This document shows positions 5,732-31,396 of a DNA stretch of 42,003 bases, piece after piece. The position numbers were made by a program, and so were the translations under genes. The DNA is taken from IMG/VR virus record IMGVR_UViG_2671180896_000003, positions 1 to 42,003 of that record. One strand, given 5' to 3'. Within the stretch, counting starts at the first letter, position 1. Each line of letters starts with the position of its first letter. The notes beneath the pieces are model-generated. The model saw nothing but the letters and a program-made list of their open reading frames with translations. It was not told the DNA's origin and did not search any database. Source of the stretch: a virus. Lineage: Duplodnaviria; Heunggongvirae; Uroviricota; Caudoviricetes.

Positions 5732-5755
5732 TAAAAAACCCGCCGAGGCGGGTTA
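5732..5755 (-). terminator. Intrinsic terminator (minus orientation) just upstream of spike gene
   Basis: AACCCGC-CGAGG-GCGGGTT hairpin followed on the minus strand by TTTTTT. Confidence 0.6.
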
Positions 5756-27688: not shown

Positions 27689-27937
27689 TCAGACCGTTGA
27701 TTTCATATTATCAGAAGGTTGGGTTACCCGGTAGCCGAGACGGTTAATAAACTGCATAAAACCATTAGGAGTAAAGACCTCTTCATCATCCAGCAAAGGC
27801 CGCATAGAAACCATGCCATTGACGCGATAAATTAGATGCCTGCCCGATGAAGGAAAGCTAAACACCACGCAGCCGTCAGACCTTCTTACAATGTCATACC
27901 AGTTGTCTTCTGACGTTTGCAAAGCTGAATCACTCAC
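27689..27937 (-). CDS. Hypothetical small protein downstream of dinI-like gene; candidate antirepressor
   Basis: 82 aa; GTG start preceded by AGGGAGAA; same strand and immediately downstream of SOS-box/dinI-like unit with no terminator between. Confidence 0.5.
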   Translation of the reverse strand: MSDSALQTSEDNWYDIVRRSDGCVVFSFPSSGRHLIYRVNGMVSMRPLLDDEEVFTPNGFMQFINRLGYRVTQPSDNMKSTV

Positions 27938-28054
27938 ATTTATGTTCTCCCTTCGAGCGACTAACAGACGCGATTAAAGATTGTCGGCAGCAGCATCAGA
28001 GGGTTACGCAAATTGCGGTATTCTGAAAAATGCGCGCCAGCCTTAAGCGCAATT

Positions 28055-28288
28055 CTAATAAAACCAGTCGTCAGCGCTTTCCCAGGTATCCTGGAGGATT
28101 GATTCAATTTTCTTTTTATCGTCCTTGTCACCACCAAAAACACTTAACCCATCGGCCCCGGCACGGCGGATTGTGAGCCTGCAATTGTCATAGTGATCAT
28201 TCAGGCGCTTAAGCAGTTCTTTCTCCAGTGCTGGTACTGCGCCTTTAGGAAGTTCTTTCATGCGATCAATGGTTAATTCAACTTTCAT
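28055..28288 (-). CDS. dinI: DinI-like protein
   Basis: From MKVELTIDRMKELPKGAVPALEKELLKRL...ESILQDTWESADDWFY; matches recalled E. coli DinI pattern including C-terminal ETWESADDWF. Confidence 0.85.
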   Translation of the reverse strand: MKVELTIDRMKELPKGAVPALEKELLKRLNDHYDNCRLTIRRAGADGLSVFGGDKDDKKKIESILQDTWESADDWFY

Positions 28289-28306
28289 AATGGCCCCCAT
28301 TGCATG

Positions 28307-28326
28307 TACTGTGTTTTTATACAGTA
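28307..28326 (-). promoter_or_regulatory. LexA operator (SOS box) in dinI-like promoter
   Basis: TACTGTGTTTTTATACAGTA: CTGT-N8-ACAG, 19 bp upstream of the dinI-like ATG; candidate -35 TTGATC and -10 TATACT overlap it on the minus strand. Confidence 0.8.
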
Positions 28327-28388
28327 TACCTATGCGCGGAAATGATCAACGTTTTAAGAACACAAATTGTTAATTTTCTGTCAGTAGT

Positions 28389-28416
28389 AAAAAAAGAAAA
28401 CCCGCCGTAGCGGGTT
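28389..28416 (-). terminator. Intrinsic terminator (minus orientation) between accessory island and dinI-like unit
   Basis: AACCCGC-CGTA-GCGGGTT hairpin followed on minus strand by TTTTCTTTTTT. Confidence 0.6.
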
Positions 28417-28779
28417 GAATTAGCAGTGTTATATTAAGCGGCAATTTCTTTCTGCCGGCACAATCCCGAGAGATTCGCCCTCTGTATCGCATCATCAATG
28501 AGCACCTGTATGACCATGAGGCAAAGCGTTATCCAACTTGCATTCATCTTTTTCAATCAGCAAAGGAGTGGTTAGTGCTGTGAGTGGGCTTTGTTCACTT
28601 CATGGTAGATAAATCAGCTATGGATAAGTGATAAGAGGTGAAATCAATCCGAATTAACAACCTGAAGCACATTAATCGGAACACAGATATTAAAATCCTA
28701 AAGTCTAGTAACAAATAGCCGATATGAGATATTGCTTATCAGTTTAAAAATAATCTATTGAAAAAATGGGGGGGAGGCG

Positions 28780-29343
28780 TTGAAGCGAGTAGAGCGCGAT
28801 TTTATCTGTCTGTTTAATTGTGTGTGGTATCAAGATTTCCCTGTGTTCAAAGGTGAATATATCAACCGTTCCAACTGGACCATTCATGTTGGCCTGGTCA
28901 TGCGCGAGTGTGCAAAGTTAATGGGCGCAAGAACATTTTTTGAACAAGGCGGGCGTACCGATGCGGTCCTACAATATCCAGACAATCAAATTTTAACCTA
29001 TGTTGAGTGGGAGTATAATCAGGCAGACAGAGATAGCGTTAACGAGTTAGACAAACTGCTTGAAAAAAACGACAAGTGCTATTTCTCCACATTCATCTCA
29101 TATTGTCAGCATGAAAACATCAATATTGTTATTGAAAAAGCAAGTAGAATATGGAGTGAAGCAAGCAGGCCTTTGATTTTTTTTCTTATCACCTATGAGC
29201 CTCAAACGAAAAAACGCCGCCATTTTTTAGAACTCAGAACTTATTTTTTCTCAAACGGCAAAAGAAAACTAGTTCGCAAACAACCTGCGCTTCCATGGGA
29301 TATTGAGCAACGAAAATACAATGTCGAAGAAGATGCAGGATAG
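28780..29343 (+). CDS. Hypothetical protein, 187 aa, AT-rich accessory cargo (defence-like candidate)
   Basis: TTG start with GGGGGGAGG RBS; AT-rich codon usage unlike flanking phage genes; about 350 bp non-coding upstream; no family recognised. Contains YPD...YVEWEY segment that might be a degenerate nuclease motif (speculative). Confidence 0.6.
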   Translation: MKRVERDFICLFNCVWYQDFPVFKGEYINRSNWTIHVGLVMRECAKLMGARTFFEQGGRTDAVLQYPDNQILTYVEWEYNQADRDSVNELDKLLEKNDKCYFSTFISYCQHENINIVIEKASRIWSEASRPLIFFLITYEPQTKKRRHFLELRTYFFSNGKRKLVRKQPALPWDIEQRKYNVEEDAG

Positions 29344-29382
29344 AAGAGACATAAGGTTTTCACGACAGTCTCGTTTCGAGCC

Positions 29383-29764
29383 CTAACTAAAATATTCTGT
29401 TCGGAGCAACCAAATAGCTCTGGCTTTGCTGTGACCATGTTCGCGGTACCAACGCCTCTCTAGGTCCGCTTCTCGCTCATGGTGGACCAAAATCAAATCT
29501 AAAATGACGTGGCTAAGCGGGAGTACATAGTGAATGACAGGATGCTCCGGGCAGCACCATACTAATTCAGTTCCCGTCAGAGGTAGGCGTTGCTTCATGA
29601 TGGGATGAGCGCTCCCTCCAGACAATCCATGCGACAGCCGCCTCCCATGATATATATCCATTACCGCCATTTTTCGCTCTGCGGAGATTAACTGCATCAC
29701 CAAACCTTTCAATGATGAATTTTTCAAATTCTATGCGTTTTTCTTCGTCGATTGTTGAATCCAT
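29383..29764 (-). pseudogene. Two overlapping minus-strand ORFs in different frames (65 aa and 114 aa); possible frameshifted gene
   Basis: ORF 29567-29764 (MDSTIDEEKRIEFEKF..., RBS GGGGAAGG) and ORF 29383-29727 overlap by 161 nt in frames offset by one; together they would give about 120 aa. Confidence 0.35.
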
Positions 29765-29981
29765 ACCTTCCCCAGAAGAGTCCTACGAATCGCTCTTATT
29801 GCATAAAAAATAGCATATACAATAGAGAGTGAAAAACCGACGTAGCGGGTTAACTTTATGTTACTCATGAGTCTTGTCTCGCTGCGACTTAAAAGCGGAA
29901 CATTCTCGCGCAAGTTGCGTTGCTAAAGCTACGGGGTTGAATGGCTCTCCATGCCCATTTAAGAAGGCATGCGGTGTGTAG

Positions 29982-30010
29982 TTGAACGTTATTTAAAACA
30001 CAGATAGAAT
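29982..30010 (+). promoter_or_regulatory. Sigma70-type promoter for secreted-protein gene
   Basis: TTGAAC (29982-29987), 17-bp spacer, TAGAAT (30005-30010); about 35 bp upstream of ATG at 30044. Confidence 0.55.
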
Positions 30011-30043
30011 CAAGAAAAATCCTAAATAAATGGAATATTGTTT

Positions 30044-30424
30044 ATGGCTAAGAAAATCGCATTACTGGGCTTTTCTGCTCTTTTTGTTGCAAGTGTTGCT
30101 TTTGCTGAAACGACAAGTAACTGGGTTGAGGTTACTACAGCTGATGATGGCATTTTTTCAGCAAAAAAAGGCACATTTAGAAATGTAAAAGGTGATTCAT
30201 CTGCCTTGTTCATGTATCAAACAAAAAATAAAAAAGTAGAGTACTACAAAGTTAGTATTAAAGATGCCGACTGTGATAGTGGATATGGGGAGATAAGATT
30301 CTTCTATATGGATGGGAAATTAGCTTTCAAAGGTGATTATGTTGCTGATGGGAACAGTGTTGGCGCAGGTATTGGTGATTTTATGTGTGGGGTCAGAATT
30401 GGACTTAACACACAAAAAAGTTAA
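30044..30424 (+). CDS. Secreted/periplasmic protein (lysogenic-conversion candidate)
   Basis: From MAKKIALLGFSALFVASVAFA|ETT: signal peptide with AFA cleavage motif; mature about 105 aa with two Cys; own promoter. Confidence 0.7.
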   Translation: MAKKIALLGFSALFVASVAFAETTSNWVEVTTADDGIFSAKKGTFRNVKGDSSALFMYQTKNKKVEYYKVSIKDADCDSGYGEIRFFYMDGKLAFKGDYVADGNSVGAGIGDFMCGVRIGLNTQKS

Positions 30425-30464
30425 ATGAGGGGCATTTGTTAAAAAACAATAGCCCCACATTAGA

Positions 30465-30666
30465 TCAATATTGGCTCCGGCATTTCTGGATAAAAGCTTC
30501 TATGCTACGGCGCTCATAGCGAACAATCTTAGCGCTGAACTTTACACGGGGCCAATGTAGACCGGTGTCGGTGTTCTGTATTCCATTTACATAATGTTTT
30601 TTGCGTAATTCCCAGCTTCTGGCATACCTCGCCCGGAGTGAGGAGATCATCAGGTTGCTCAGTCAT
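30465..30666 (-). pseudogene. AlpA/Xis-family HTH regulator, frameshifted
   Basis: ATG 30664-30666 (RBS GAGG): MTEQPDDLLTPGEVCQKLGITQKTLCKW then premature stop; frame shifted by one continues with HWPRVKFSAKIVRYERRSIEAFIQK, the usual AlpA C-terminal pattern. Confidence 0.6.
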
Positions 30667-30838
30667 GTTATGCCTCGCTGTTATCTGGGGTGATGATTAG
30701 CAGCTTCCAGATGGCTGAGACATACATAGCCTGATGTTTCGCATCGACTAGGGCATTATGCATGTCACCTTCAAACGGCATGTCCCGAGTTCTCCCTTTT
30801 CGCCGCTTTCGCGTCGCATATTCTCCAAACGGTATTTA

Positions 30839-31396
30839 TCAATCATTACTGTTATCCTCGCAGTAGTAGTGCCGTCCCTCTGGGTCAGTAGATACATGTC
30901 CGCAGATATCGCATTCAATTCCAGGAAGCACCGATTCTGACTGCGCTTTGATATGCAGTCGCGGTTCACCGTCTTTCGGCTCTGGCCACTGGCGGTTTTT
31001 GTTAACCGCCAGCTTTTCTACCATCGCCAGGGTAATCTGCTTATCACTGATACCGGCACGACGTTGCGCATCCCATAACAGGAATTGCATGTCAGCCCAT
31101 TCGCTCATCTCGTCTGGTTCCGCAGCAGCCTCGATAGCTTCTTTGGAAAGGTGCTTCAGCGGACCAACTGGACCGACATCGCCGAATGTTTCATCTGACC
31201 ATGCTGCATGTTCACAGCGTACCTGCTCACGGGCTATCGACTCCAGAACCCCATCAATCACCTTCACTGCATCAGCCATTGCGTAGCCGAGATTACCGCC
31301 GTCGCTTTGTGCTGCTGCTTTGCTGAGTATTTCGCGTACCTGGTGCAAGCGATCAAGTGATACAGGACCGTGCGCCGGGTGGTTGTTAGTTGTCAT
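30839..31396 (-). CDS. Hypothetical early protein (possibly DUF550-like)
   Basis: 185 aa; C-terminal Cys/His cluster (CDICGH...YYCED); family recollection weak. Confidence 0.45.
   Translation of the reverse strand: MTTNNHPAHGPVSLDRLHQVREILSKAAAQSDGGNLGYAMADAVKVIDGVLESIAREQVRCEHAAWSDETFGDVGPVGPLKHLSKEAIEAAAEPDEMSEWADMQFLLWDAQRRAGISDKQITLAMVEKLAVNKNRQWPEPKDGEPRLHIKAQSESVLPGIECDICGHVSTDPEGRHYYCEDNSND

What the first reader, a model, noticed from the sequence alone, without database searches (positions are those of the whole stretch)
28417..30460. AT-rich accessory island in the early-right operon, bounded by two copies of a terminator-like motif
Between the replication/early genes and the dinI-like unit the minus-strand operon is interrupted by about 2 kb of low-GC DNA whose ORFs are mostly on the opposite strand. 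These are a 187-aa protein with a long non-coding leader (28780-29343), a pair of overlapping minus-strand ORFs, and a secreted protein with its own promoter. The island is flanked by two related hairpin motifs, AAAACCCGCCGTAGCGGGTT at 28397 and the degenerate AAAAACCGACGTAGCGGGTT at 29832, suggesting insertion by recombination at a terminator. The 187-aa protein has no family I can assign; a YPD...YVEWEY segment could be a degenerate nuclease-type motif, but that is speculation.
Basis: partly seen in the sequence, partly recalled or inferred. Interest (0 to 1): 0.7.

Follow-up and report, generated by a model that had tools for sequence, protein, structure and literature searches.

The report
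Prophage cargo stack with orphan nuclease
A low-GC patch in a lambda-like E. coli prophage is a stack of separately acquired accessory genes, and one of them, an unclassified restriction-enzyme-like nuclease, sits in a hairpin-bounded slot that holds known anti-phage defence genes in related prophages.

Summary
The observation largely holds. Bases 28417-30460 are the lowest-GC 2 kb of the window. The stretch is in only 3 of 5426 complete E. coli genomes and in no sequenced phage.

It is not one island bounded by two terminators. It is a mosaic:
- a stub of a Dcm-type methylase gene
- a 0.9-kb cassette carrying ORF187
- a small conserved lambdoid gene (ORF65)
- a separate cassette for a secreted protein

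The first hairpin is a real terminator. The second is a decayed copy lying inside the island. Relatives show that this terminator does mark module boundaries.

Its cassette is delimited by two related 24-nt palindromes. In other lambdoid prophages these bracket at least 24 alternative cargos, including PD-T7-1, DarG and NsnA.

Best reading: a stand-alone nuclease gene, probably anti-phage. The function is inferred, not shown.

The parts
28055..28300 (-). dinI-family gene. It is backbone, not part of the island.
   Evidence: Pfam DinI, E 4e-26. Shared at 94-98% identity with about 48 other E. coli prophages and phage mEp237.
28307..28326 (.). LexA-box-like palindrome TACTGTGTTTTTATACAGTA, just upstream of dinI
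   Evidence: Read from the sequence. It has 3 mismatches to TACTGTATATATATACAGTA. Function is inferred.
28389..28416 (-). Intrinsic terminator 1 of the minus-strand operon: stem AACCCGC/GCGGGTT followed by a U-tract
   Evidence: Terminator scan. Fold -12.8 kcal/mol, z -4.0.
28434..28556 (-). 3' stub of a phage Dcm-type cytosine methyltransferase gene (remnant)
   Evidence: RefSeq marks the homologous stretch as a truncated DNA (cytosine) methyltransferase pseudogene in relatives. mEp237 has a partial C-5 methylase in the slot. Homology to relatives reaches 28455, 28482 or 28578.
28566..28589 (+). Degenerate 'A-type' boundary palindrome, the left junction of the ORF187 cassette
   Evidence: Three-way alignments place the switch here from phage-type to cassette-type sequence. 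Intermediate forms are GGTTAGTGCCAAAAGCGGAC in L063 and ATCCGCTCTGTGCCATAAGCGGAC in L014.
28575..29488 (+). ORF187 cassette: about 205 nt upstream region, the gene, and about 145 nt downstream
   Evidence: 86% identical over 917 nt to non-phage enterobacterial chromosomal loci L014-L016. Related phages L063 and L066 share both flanks but carry a CdiI immunity gene instead.
28780..29343 (+). ORF187: stand-alone protein with a restriction-endonuclease fold and E55...D61...E76-W-E78
29464..29487 (+). 'B-type' boundary palindrome GTCCGCTTCTCGCTCATGGTGGAC, the right junction of the ORF187 cassette
   Evidence: Shared by phages with other cargo (L063, L065-L067) and by chromosomal cassettes (L014, L016, L021). 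Homology switches here.
29567..29764 (-). ORF65: small conserved lambdoid gene on the operon strand
   Evidence: RefSeq CDS. Homologues of 79-100% identity in 22 viral contigs. Weak hits to SfV orf28 and phrog_660.
29832..29851 (-). Decayed copy of the same terminator, upstream of ORF65
   Evidence: Intact as AACCCGCTACGGCGGGTTTTT in front of ORF65 homologues. A pair-preserving variant (one G-U wobble) occurs in others. Homology between phage groups breaks exactly 5' of it. The window copy does not fold.
29981..30461 (+). Secreted-protein cassette: promoter-like site 29982-30010, CDS 30044-30424, hairpin 30424-30461
30529..30666 (-). 45-aa HTH ORF on the operon strand, inside the unique stretch
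   Evidence: phrog_4745 DNA-binding protein, E 7e-13.
30668..30787 (-). Remnant annotated by RefSeq as a truncated 3'-5' exoribonuclease-domain gene
   Evidence: Pseudogene call in the identical E. coli PSJ-22 locus.
30839..31396 (-). DUF550 (dATP/dGTP pyrophosphohydrolase) gene. Homology to related prophages resumes inside it, at 30936-30948.
   Evidence: Pfam E 7e-41. BLAST breakpoints.

Best explanation
SHOWN

The low-GC stretch is a stack of accessory modules. It sits in the variable slot between the replication genes and the dinI/nin genes of a lambdoid (mEp237- or Rac-like) E. coli prophage. Read along the minus-strand operon, the order is:
1. DUF550 gene, gene remnants and a small HTH ORF.
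2. A self-contained cassette for a secreted protein, antisense to the operon.
3. A decayed terminator followed by the small gene ORF65.
4. The ORF187 cassette, antisense to the operon.
5. A Dcm-methylase gene stub, an intact terminator, then dinI.

ORF187 is a real gene under strong purifying selection. It belongs to an unclassified family of stand-alone proteins of about 190 aa.
- The family is found in Pantoea, Pseudomonas and Dehalococcoidia genomes, in megaplasmids, and in unrelated Pseudomonas prophages.
- The structure model has the restriction-endonuclease (PD-(D/E)xK) core.
- D61 sits at the start of strand 2, and E76-x-E78 lies on strand 3. This is the rare D...ExE variant that I recall from BamHI.
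- No methyltransferase or other partner is conserved next to it.

The cassette is delimited by two related 24-nt palindromes of the form GTCCGCT-N10-AGCGGAC, here called the A and B types.
- In other lambdoid prophages the same pair brackets a hypervariable slot holding at least 24 different cargos.
- These cargos include the known defence genes PD-T7-1, DarG, NsnA and PDC-S39, and a TIR protein.
- In the closest phage relatives the very same position holds a CdiI immunity gene.
- In the window, both crossovers map inside the palindromes.

INFERRED

- ORF187 is a Mg2+-dependent DNA endonuclease.
- It is expressed from its own upstream region in the lysogen.
- It cuts incoming foreign DNA, which would make it a single-gene defence or superinfection-exclusion nuclease.
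- It tolerates host DNA because its target is a modification, a structure or a rare site.
- The cassette entered by short-homology recombination at the boundary palindromes, or by site-specific recombination there.
For: Rarity and mosaic structure:
- The full stretch is in 3 of 5426 E. coli genomes. No phage record matches any part of the reported island 28417-30460, even at low stringency.
- GC is the lowest of the window.

ORF187 as a gene and a family:
- dN/dS is 0.05-0.08.
- 34 close clusters and 185 representatives match it.
- No Pfam, NCBIfam, PHROG or PADLOC model matches.

Fold and residues:
- pLDDT is 88, with a helix followed by three strands, then a helix and a strand.
- E55, E76 and E78 are invariant across 70 sequences of 20-60% identity. 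D61, W77, E89 and K92 are at least 90% conserved.

Solitary gene:
- No conserved neighbour appears in 32 loci.

Carried on mobile elements:
- In Pseudomonas prophages it lies on the opposite strand between the HNH and small-terminase genes.
- It occurs in megaplasmids and an ICE-like plasmid.
- It occurs in an accessory island with SRA-HNH and RES-Xre genes.

The slot:
- A- and B-type palindromes flank ORF187 in L014 and L021.
- The A-type pattern is in at least 120 viral contigs.
- A B-type copy lies within 3.2 kb downstream of 56 of 120 A sites, against 6 upstream.
- 24 cargo clusters lie between A and B.
- Cargo matches include PD-T7-1 (4e-157), DarG (2e-79), NsnA (2e-56) and PDC-S39 (3e-102), plus TIR and protease effectors.
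- A CdiI gene occupies the homologous position in L063 and L066.
- The crossovers lie inside the palindromes.
Against: - Nothing tests activity or phenotype.
- No known defence model matches ORF187.
- I could not superpose residues, so the equivalence of E55/D61/E76/E78 to BamHI E77/D94/E111/E113 rests on topology and pattern only.
- A restriction-like nuclease without a methylase should be toxic unless its specificity is unusual.
- Several Pseudomonas species keep the gene at one conserved chromosomal site, between a dehydrogenase gene and a cytochrome c gene, with no mobile-element signs.
- In megaplasmids it lies near a plasmid recA and an ERCC4 nuclease gene, which points to recombination or repair.
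- The promoter scan found no strong sigma-70 site upstream of ORF187.
- The A-type palindrome in the window is badly degraded.
Confidence: 0.5

Rival explanations
1. ORF187 is a structure-specific recombination or repair nuclease that serves the mobile element itself, for example by processing branched or damaged DNA. It is not an anti-phage weapon.
For: In three Pseudomonas megaplasmids the homologue lies 0.7-2.8 kb downstream of a plasmid-borne recA. In two of the three an ERCC4 nuclease gene is also nearby. In the window it lies beside dinI, a RecA modulator, and the nin recombination genes. Lack of a methylase partner fits a nuclease that does not read sequence. It holds a conserved chromosomal position in several Pseudomonas species.
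Against: The megaplasmids share one backbone, so they count as one context. Elsewhere the neighbours are unrelated. The prophage already has RusA and a NinB-like protein. The slot it occupies carries conflict genes in relatives.
Confidence: 0.2
2. ORF187 is a selfish, homing-type endonuclease. It cuts empty A/B palindrome sites and so drives copying of its own hairpin-bounded cassette into them.
For: The same cassette of about 0.92 kb, bracketed by direct A-type palindromes, sits in unrelated chromosomal contexts and in a phage slot. The gene is solitary. Its distribution across phyla is patchy.
Against: At least 24 unrelated cargos, most with no nuclease, are bracketed by the same palindromes, so mobility of the slot does not need ORF187. 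Pseudomonas and Dehalococcoidia homologues were not found with these palindromes.
Confidence: 0.1
3. ORF187 is not a nuclease. It is a nucleic-acid-binding or regulatory protein that merely keeps the restriction-endonuclease-like fold, as is suspected for YaeQ.
For: Foldseek's best matches are YaeQ proteins of similar size (E 1e-5). The canonical lysine of the D...(D/E)xK motif is missing.
Against: Four acidic residues at the canonical positions are invariant or nearly so across 20-60% identity. From memory, the ExE variant is catalytically active in BamHI. No member matches the YaeQ Pfam model.
Confidence: 0.1
4. One reading: the whole stretch 28417-30460 is a single island inserted by recombination between two copies of a terminator.
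For: Two related copies exist. The terminator is a genuine module boundary in relatives.
Against: Backbone homology continues past terminator 1. Copy 2 is internal and belongs to the ORF65 module. The three cargo units have separate relatives and separate junctions.
Confidence: 0.05

Closest known systems
BamHI/OkrAI/BstYI/BglII group of type II restriction endonucleases
   Different: There is no detectable sequence homology. There is no cognate methyltransferase in any of 32 loci. Specificity and activity are unknown.
YaeQ family (PD-(D/E)xK-like proteins of unknown function, about 180 aa)
   Different: TM-scores are low (0.31-0.40). No member of the ORF187 family hits any relevant Pfam model.
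Prophage defence hotspots (P2 and P4 hotspots: Rousset et al. 2022, PMC9122126; Vassallo et al. 2022, PMC9519451)
   Same: It is a fixed position in a temperate-phage genome. Conserved flanks enclose many alternative cargos, including validated defence systems.
   Different: Here the phages are lambdoid, and the slot lies after the replication genes. The boundaries are two specific 24-nt palindromes, which can also form B-A junctions between tandem cassettes. I found no description of this. Strings of the A-type hairpin and its reverse complement occur in no searchable paper. The B-type string was not searched.
Morons of lambdoid phages (from my own knowledge, as defined for HK97/HK022)
   Same: They are extra genes with their own expression signals, deviant GC and patchy distribution, lying between operon genes.
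   Different: Several units are stacked here. One of them has defined palindromic junctions.
Integron gene cassettes (attC-bounded arrays)
   Same: Single promoterless or self-contained genes are separated by imperfect palindromes. Arrays of the form A-cargo-B-A-cargo exist.
   Different: No integrase is associated. The palindromes are conserved in sequence and lack the attC core. The mechanism is unknown.
Haemophilus influenzae Protein E (compared with the secreted 126-aa protein only)
   Different: There is no Pfam hit. The signal peptide is a plain AFA-E type without a lipobox cysteine (read from the sequence).

Membership tests
PD-(D/E)xK (restriction-endonuclease-like) superfamily | Core fold: helix, three strands, helix, strand, in a mixed sheet | tested here: met
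   [not shown]
PD-(D/E)xK (restriction-endonuclease-like) superfamily | Acidic residue at the start of strand 2, and a (D/E)-x-K motif on strand 3 | tested here: inconclusive
   D61 precedes strand 62-65, and E76-W-E78 lies in strand 71-81. The lysine is replaced by glutamate. From memory, this variant is known in BamHI. K92 on the next helix is at least 90% conserved. No residue-level superposition was possible.
PD-(D/E)xK (restriction-endonuclease-like) superfamily | Metal-dependent phosphodiester cleavage | not testable with these tools
   Needs biochemistry.
BamHI-like type II restriction enzymes | Detectable sequence or profile homology to the family | tested here: not met
   hmmsearch of two family profiles against all PDB sequences found no nuclease. 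hhalign against a BamHI sequence recalled from memory gave probability 1.4%.
BamHI-like type II restriction enzymes | Adjacent cognate DNA methyltransferase | tested here: not met
   No conserved neighbour in 32 loci. Annotated neighbourhoods show none. The Dcm stub beside it in the window is backbone, shared with phages that lack ORF187.
Known anti-phage defence systems (PADLOC-DB 2.0) | Match to a defence protein model | tested here: not met
   No hit at E up to 1 for ORF187, ORF65, ORF114 or the secreted protein.
NucC or HamA type effector nucleases | Partner signalling or helicase genes (CD-NTase, HamB) | tested here: not met
   [not shown]
Prophage moron or hotspot cargo | Present in some and absent from other closely related phages at the same position, with alternative genes in the slot | tested here: met
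   Present in 3 of 5426 genomes, against about 48 with the same flank and other content. Alternative cargo is seen in L002, L003, L013, L063 and L066.
Prophage moron or hotspot cargo | Deviant base composition and own expression signals | tested here: inconclusive
   Composition is clearly deviant. The secreted gene has a promoter-like site and a hairpin. ORF187 has a conserved upstream block of about 200 nt and a strong Shine-Dalgarno sequence, but no consensus promoter was found.
Surface adhesin Protein E family (secreted protein) | Sequence membership (Pfam) and lipoprotein signal | tested here: not met
   No Pfam hit. The signal peptide lacks a lipobox. There is fold resemblance only.

The most novel reading that the evidence does not exclude
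Lambdoid prophages, and some enterobacterial chromosomes, may carry an integron-like cassette system. Two conserved 24-nt palindromes (A and B, joined as B-A between tandem cassettes) would act as exchange sites for single-gene cargos. ORF187 would be a new single-protein defence nuclease of BamHI-like architecture that works without a methylase.
Probability: 0.25. Interest if true: 0.8.

Novelty: new variant of a known kind. Interest (0 to 1): 0.6.

Why it matters
If ORF187 protects against phages, it adds a compact single-gene nuclease family to the defence repertoire. It is about 190 aa, has no Pfam model, and occurs in prophages, megaplasmids and chromosomes of several phyla. It would also raise the question of how a methylase-free, restriction-like enzyme spares its host.

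Separately, the boundary palindromes give a simple sequence handle for finding cargo. The A-type copy, together with about 45 nt of the backbone upstream of it, is present in about 41% of complete E. coli genomes. At least 24 cargo types already lie between A- and B-type copies, many of them uncharacterised. The palindromes may also point to a mechanism for the module exchange that has long been noted in lambdoid phages.

Tried and rejected
- Pfam, NCBIfam, PHROG and PADLOC scans of ORF187 found nothing. None of 70 diverse family members matches a relevant Pfam model.
- Profile searches against PDB sequences gave only chance hits, to ceruloplasmin and clostripain.
- hhalign against BamHI found no signal.
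- The AlphaFold-database fold library was not available.
- Rfam found no family in 28000-31200, nor at the palindromes in 14 loci.
- I looked for a small partner ORF or antitoxin in the ORF187 flanks. No convincing conserved ORF was found.
- ORF114 (29383-29727) has no homologue and was dropped as spurious.
- Homology around the two terminator copies does not extend further. The similarity is confined to 21 nt.
- A promoter reading of the TTGACAT...TAGAGCT block upstream of A-type palindromes was considered and left open, because the -10 match is poor (read).
- RNA-structure selection on the B palindrome was considered unlikely. The arm on the cargo side decays without compensating changes (read).
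- Look-ups that failed: P0005 and the 128-aa start variant are not on record. The diverse alignment A2 was too variable for a locus search.
Full report
**Setting.** The window is a lambdoid prophage of E. coli.
- Its early-right operon runs on the minus strand: replication protein, DUF977, DUF550, then dinI, a DUF1367/NinB-like gene, DUF1364, RusA and the antiterminator.
- Window 28300-30500 is 100% identical to E. coli PSJ-22 and nearly so to two other complete genomes. extends this to 99.97% over 27901-31000 in PSJ-22.
- Six IMG/VR contigs carry the same region at 95-99% identity over the part each contig covers.

**The observation.**
- GC of 28417-30460 is 0.406, against 0.531 for the window. 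It is the lowest-GC 2 kb of the 42 kb.
- The whole stretch occurs in 3 of 5426 complete E. coli genomes.
- About 48 other genomes and phage mEp237 share only 28300-28455/28482. That part holds the dinI promoter region, a terminator and the end of a methylase pseudogene.
- Homology to relatives resumes at 30936-30948, inside the DUF550 gene.
- No part of the reported island, 28417-30460, matches any of 50,697 phage records, even with the sensitive search.

**The two terminator motifs.**
- On the minus strand, 28416-28399 is a canonical intrinsic terminator. It lies in front of an SOS-box-like palindrome and dinI.
- The copy at 29832-29851 differs at 2 of 20 positions. That is unlikely by chance, but it no longer folds.
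- Relatives explain it. ORF65 homologues in many prophage contigs are preceded by an intact AACCCGCTACGGCGGGTTTTT. One group has a variant whose stem still pairs through a G-U wobble.
- Sequence similarity between phage groups stops exactly at the 5' edge of the hairpin.
- Contig L063 has three copies, two of them attached to the methylase stub, and each sits in front of a different small gene.
- The terminator is therefore a recurrent module boundary. In the window, however, it does not delimit the island.

**A mosaic, not one island.** BLAST against fetched loci separates three units.
1. 28575-29488 (ORF187 with its flanks) is 86% identical to non-phage chromosomal loci of an enterobacterium (L014-L016).
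2. 29464-29851 (ORF65 with its terminator) is shared with many prophages.
3. 29981-30422 (promoter plus secreted-protein gene) is 78% identical to part of a tRNA-Thr island in E. coli XYEH3934, where it lies next to yecR.

Phages L063 and L066 share both flanks of unit 1, up to 28578 and from 29464. In between they carry a 126-aa gene on the operon strand. It is a CdiI immunity protein (PF24172, E 5e-34).

**ORF187.**
- The TTG start, the Shine-Dalgarno sequence and about 200 nt upstream are conserved in Pantoea and other enterobacterial copies.
- dN/dS against three homologues is 0.05-0.06, and 0.08 between two of the homologues.
- The word-indexed search found 34 clusters of 52-96% identity. 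An exhaustive profile search found 185 representatives, nearly all stand-alone proteins of about 190-215 aa.
- Genomes carrying it include Pantoea, many Pseudomonas, Dehalococcoidia and one Bathyarchaeia bin.
- No Pfam, NCBIfam, PHROG or PADLOC model matches it. None of 70 diverse members matches a relevant Pfam family.
- The AlphaFold model is confident (pLDDT 88, pTM 0.86).
- Across 70 sequences of 20-60% identity, E55, E76 and E78 are invariant. D61, W77, E89 and K92 are at least 90% conserved.
- In the model, D61 precedes the second core strand and E76-W-E78 lies on the third. These are the canonical catalytic positions, with glutamate in place of lysine. From memory, BamHI has the same arrangement.
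The 'VEWEY' segment is the real motif.

**Context of the family.**
- Clustering all neighbouring ORFs in 32 loci found no conserved partner and no methyltransferase.
- Contexts are heterogeneous:
  - a fixed chromosomal site in the P. proteolytica, P. gessardii and P. brenneri group
  - an accessory island with SRA-HNH, RES-Xre and toxin genes in P. reidholzensis
  - next to a resolvase gene in P. putida, and among transporter and acetyltransferase genes in Pantoea
  - pQBR57-type megaplasmids, near a plasmid recA and an ERCC4 nuclease gene
  - an ICE-like Pantoea plasmid
  - Pseudomonas HK97-like prophages, on the opposite strand between the HNH and small-terminase genes, a classic moron position

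**The cassette boundaries.**
- At both ends of the ORF187 cassette, the phage-type and cassette-type sequences overlap in a short palindrome, GTCCGCT-N10-AGCGGAC.
- Two loop types recur: A (yTGTGCCAnn) and B (TTTTCGCTCAwA).
- In L014 and in Pantoea wallisii, ORF187 is bracketed by direct A copies about 920-935 nt apart. A B copy lies just before the downstream A.
- In the window the B copy is good (29464-29487) and the A copy is degraded (28566-28589).
- The exact A pattern occurs in at least 120 viral contigs. Only the 24 nt are conserved, and the sequence downstream is unrelated between contexts.
- A 73-nt segment holding A and its usual upstream flank is present in 2226 of 5426 E. coli genomes. 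There is usually one copy, it is unannotated, and in both genomes inspected it lies right after the DUF977 gene at the end of the replication module.
- A B copy lies within 3.2 kb downstream of 56 of 120 A sites, but upstream of only 6. In most contexts the sequence beyond B is a conserved stretch, taken to be backbone. In the two annotated genomes hokD lies downstream of the cargo.
- Between A and B there are 24 unrelated cargo clusters. They include PD-T7-1, DarG, NsnA, PDC-S39, a TIR protein, a protease effector and an ORC/CDC6-like ATPase.
- Tandem arrays of the form A-cargo-B-A-cargo exist.
- I found no description of these palindromes. The A-type strings are absent from the searchable literature. 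The main E. coli hotspot papers deal with P2 and P4.

**Interpretation.**
- ORF187 occupies a bona fide cargo slot that elsewhere carries validated defence genes and an immunity gene.
- It recurs as an opposite-strand moron in unrelated phages.
- It has the fold and conserved acidic residues of a restriction-type nuclease, and it has no partner.
- The most economical reading is a single-gene nuclease used by mobile elements against competing DNA.
- This is inference. Nothing here shows activity, expression or phenotype.
- The conserved chromosomal site in some Pseudomonas, and the link to recA in megaplasmids, keep a repair or recombination role alive. A homing role is possible but not needed to explain the slot.

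**The other genes.**
- ORF65 is a genuine small lambdoid gene of unknown function.
- The secreted protein (126 aa from the ATG at 30044) belongs to a family found only in Enterobacteriaceae.

**Verdict.** The finding is real and more structured than described. It is an ordinary kind of object, a stack of prophage cargo. It contains an unclassified nuclease family and exposes a palindrome-delimited cargo slot that appears not to have been described.

Noticed in passing
window 28566-28589 and 29464-29487; loci L014, L021, L063, L089-L208, L209, L210: Two related 24-nt palindromes bracket a hypervariable cargo slot in lambdoid prophages. They are GTCCGCTyTGTGCCAnnAGCGGAC (A type) and GTCCGCTTTTCGCTCAwAGCGGAC (B type). 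The A copy with its upstream flank is in 2226 of 5426 E. coli genomes. At least 24 cargo types lie between A and B, including PD-T7-1, DarG and NsnA. Tandem A-cargo-B-A-cargo arrays exist.
   Followed up: partly
loci L089-L208 and L210, 26-27 nt upstream of A-type palindromes: In 37 of 75 unique contexts a decamer TGGCACAG(A/G)G lies at a fixed distance upstream. It is complementary to the left arm and loop of the A palindrome. Only 1 of 75 contexts has such a match downstream. In L210 an A-to-G change upstream is matched by a T-to-C change in the loop. This suggests an alternative pairing of unknown role.
   Followed up: partly
window 28307-28326: A LexA-box-like palindrome, TACTGTGTTTTTATACAGTA, lies between terminator 1 and the dinI start. 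dinI therefore looks like an insulated, SOS-regulated unit.
   Followed up: no
[not shown]
   Followed up: partly
window 5735-5754: A third hairpin of the same type, AAAACCCGCCGAGGCGGGTT, has intact arms and 2 mismatches in the loop region. It lies elsewhere in the prophage. It is probably another terminator, and it shows that this stem sequence is reused.
   Followed up: no
loci L211-L213 (Pseudomonas megaplasmids, including pQBR57): ORF187 homologues of 35-37% identity lie 0.7-2.8 kb downstream of a plasmid-borne recA and 1.4-1.8 kb upstream of a DUF4942 gene. In L211 and L212 an ERCC4-domain nuclease gene is also nearby. This hints at a link to recombination or to the plasmid leading region.
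   Followed up: partly
locus L063 2542-4621: One prophage contig carries three copies of the terminator, two of them attached to the methylase stub. Each copy precedes a different small gene: a cysteine-rich secreted peptide, ORF65 followed by a CdiI immunity gene, and dinI. It looks like a stack built by repeated recombination at the terminator.
   Followed up: partly
protein P0101: A 1950-aa protein matches residues 43-80 of the ORF187 profile in 15 separate stretches. It appears to be a repetitive protein that reuses the segment holding the catalytic strands.
   Followed up: no
loci L040-L055: Homologues of 31-37% identity over the full length (up to 52% in short partial matches) occur in many Dehalococcoidia bins and one Bathyarchaeia bin. 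This is an unusually disjoint distribution for a family otherwise seen in Gammaproteobacteria.
   Followed up: no
window 30461-30947: The far end of the unique stretch holds a 45-aa HTH ORF (phrog_4745), a remnant that RefSeq calls a truncated 3'-5' exoribonuclease gene, and a divergent C-terminus of the DUF550 gene. These are signs of earlier rearrangements in the same slot.
   Followed up: no
loci L033-L036 5558-5869: In four Pseudomonas loci a 103-aa ORF starts immediately after the stop codon of the ORF187 homologue. It could be a lineage-specific partner.
   Followed up: no
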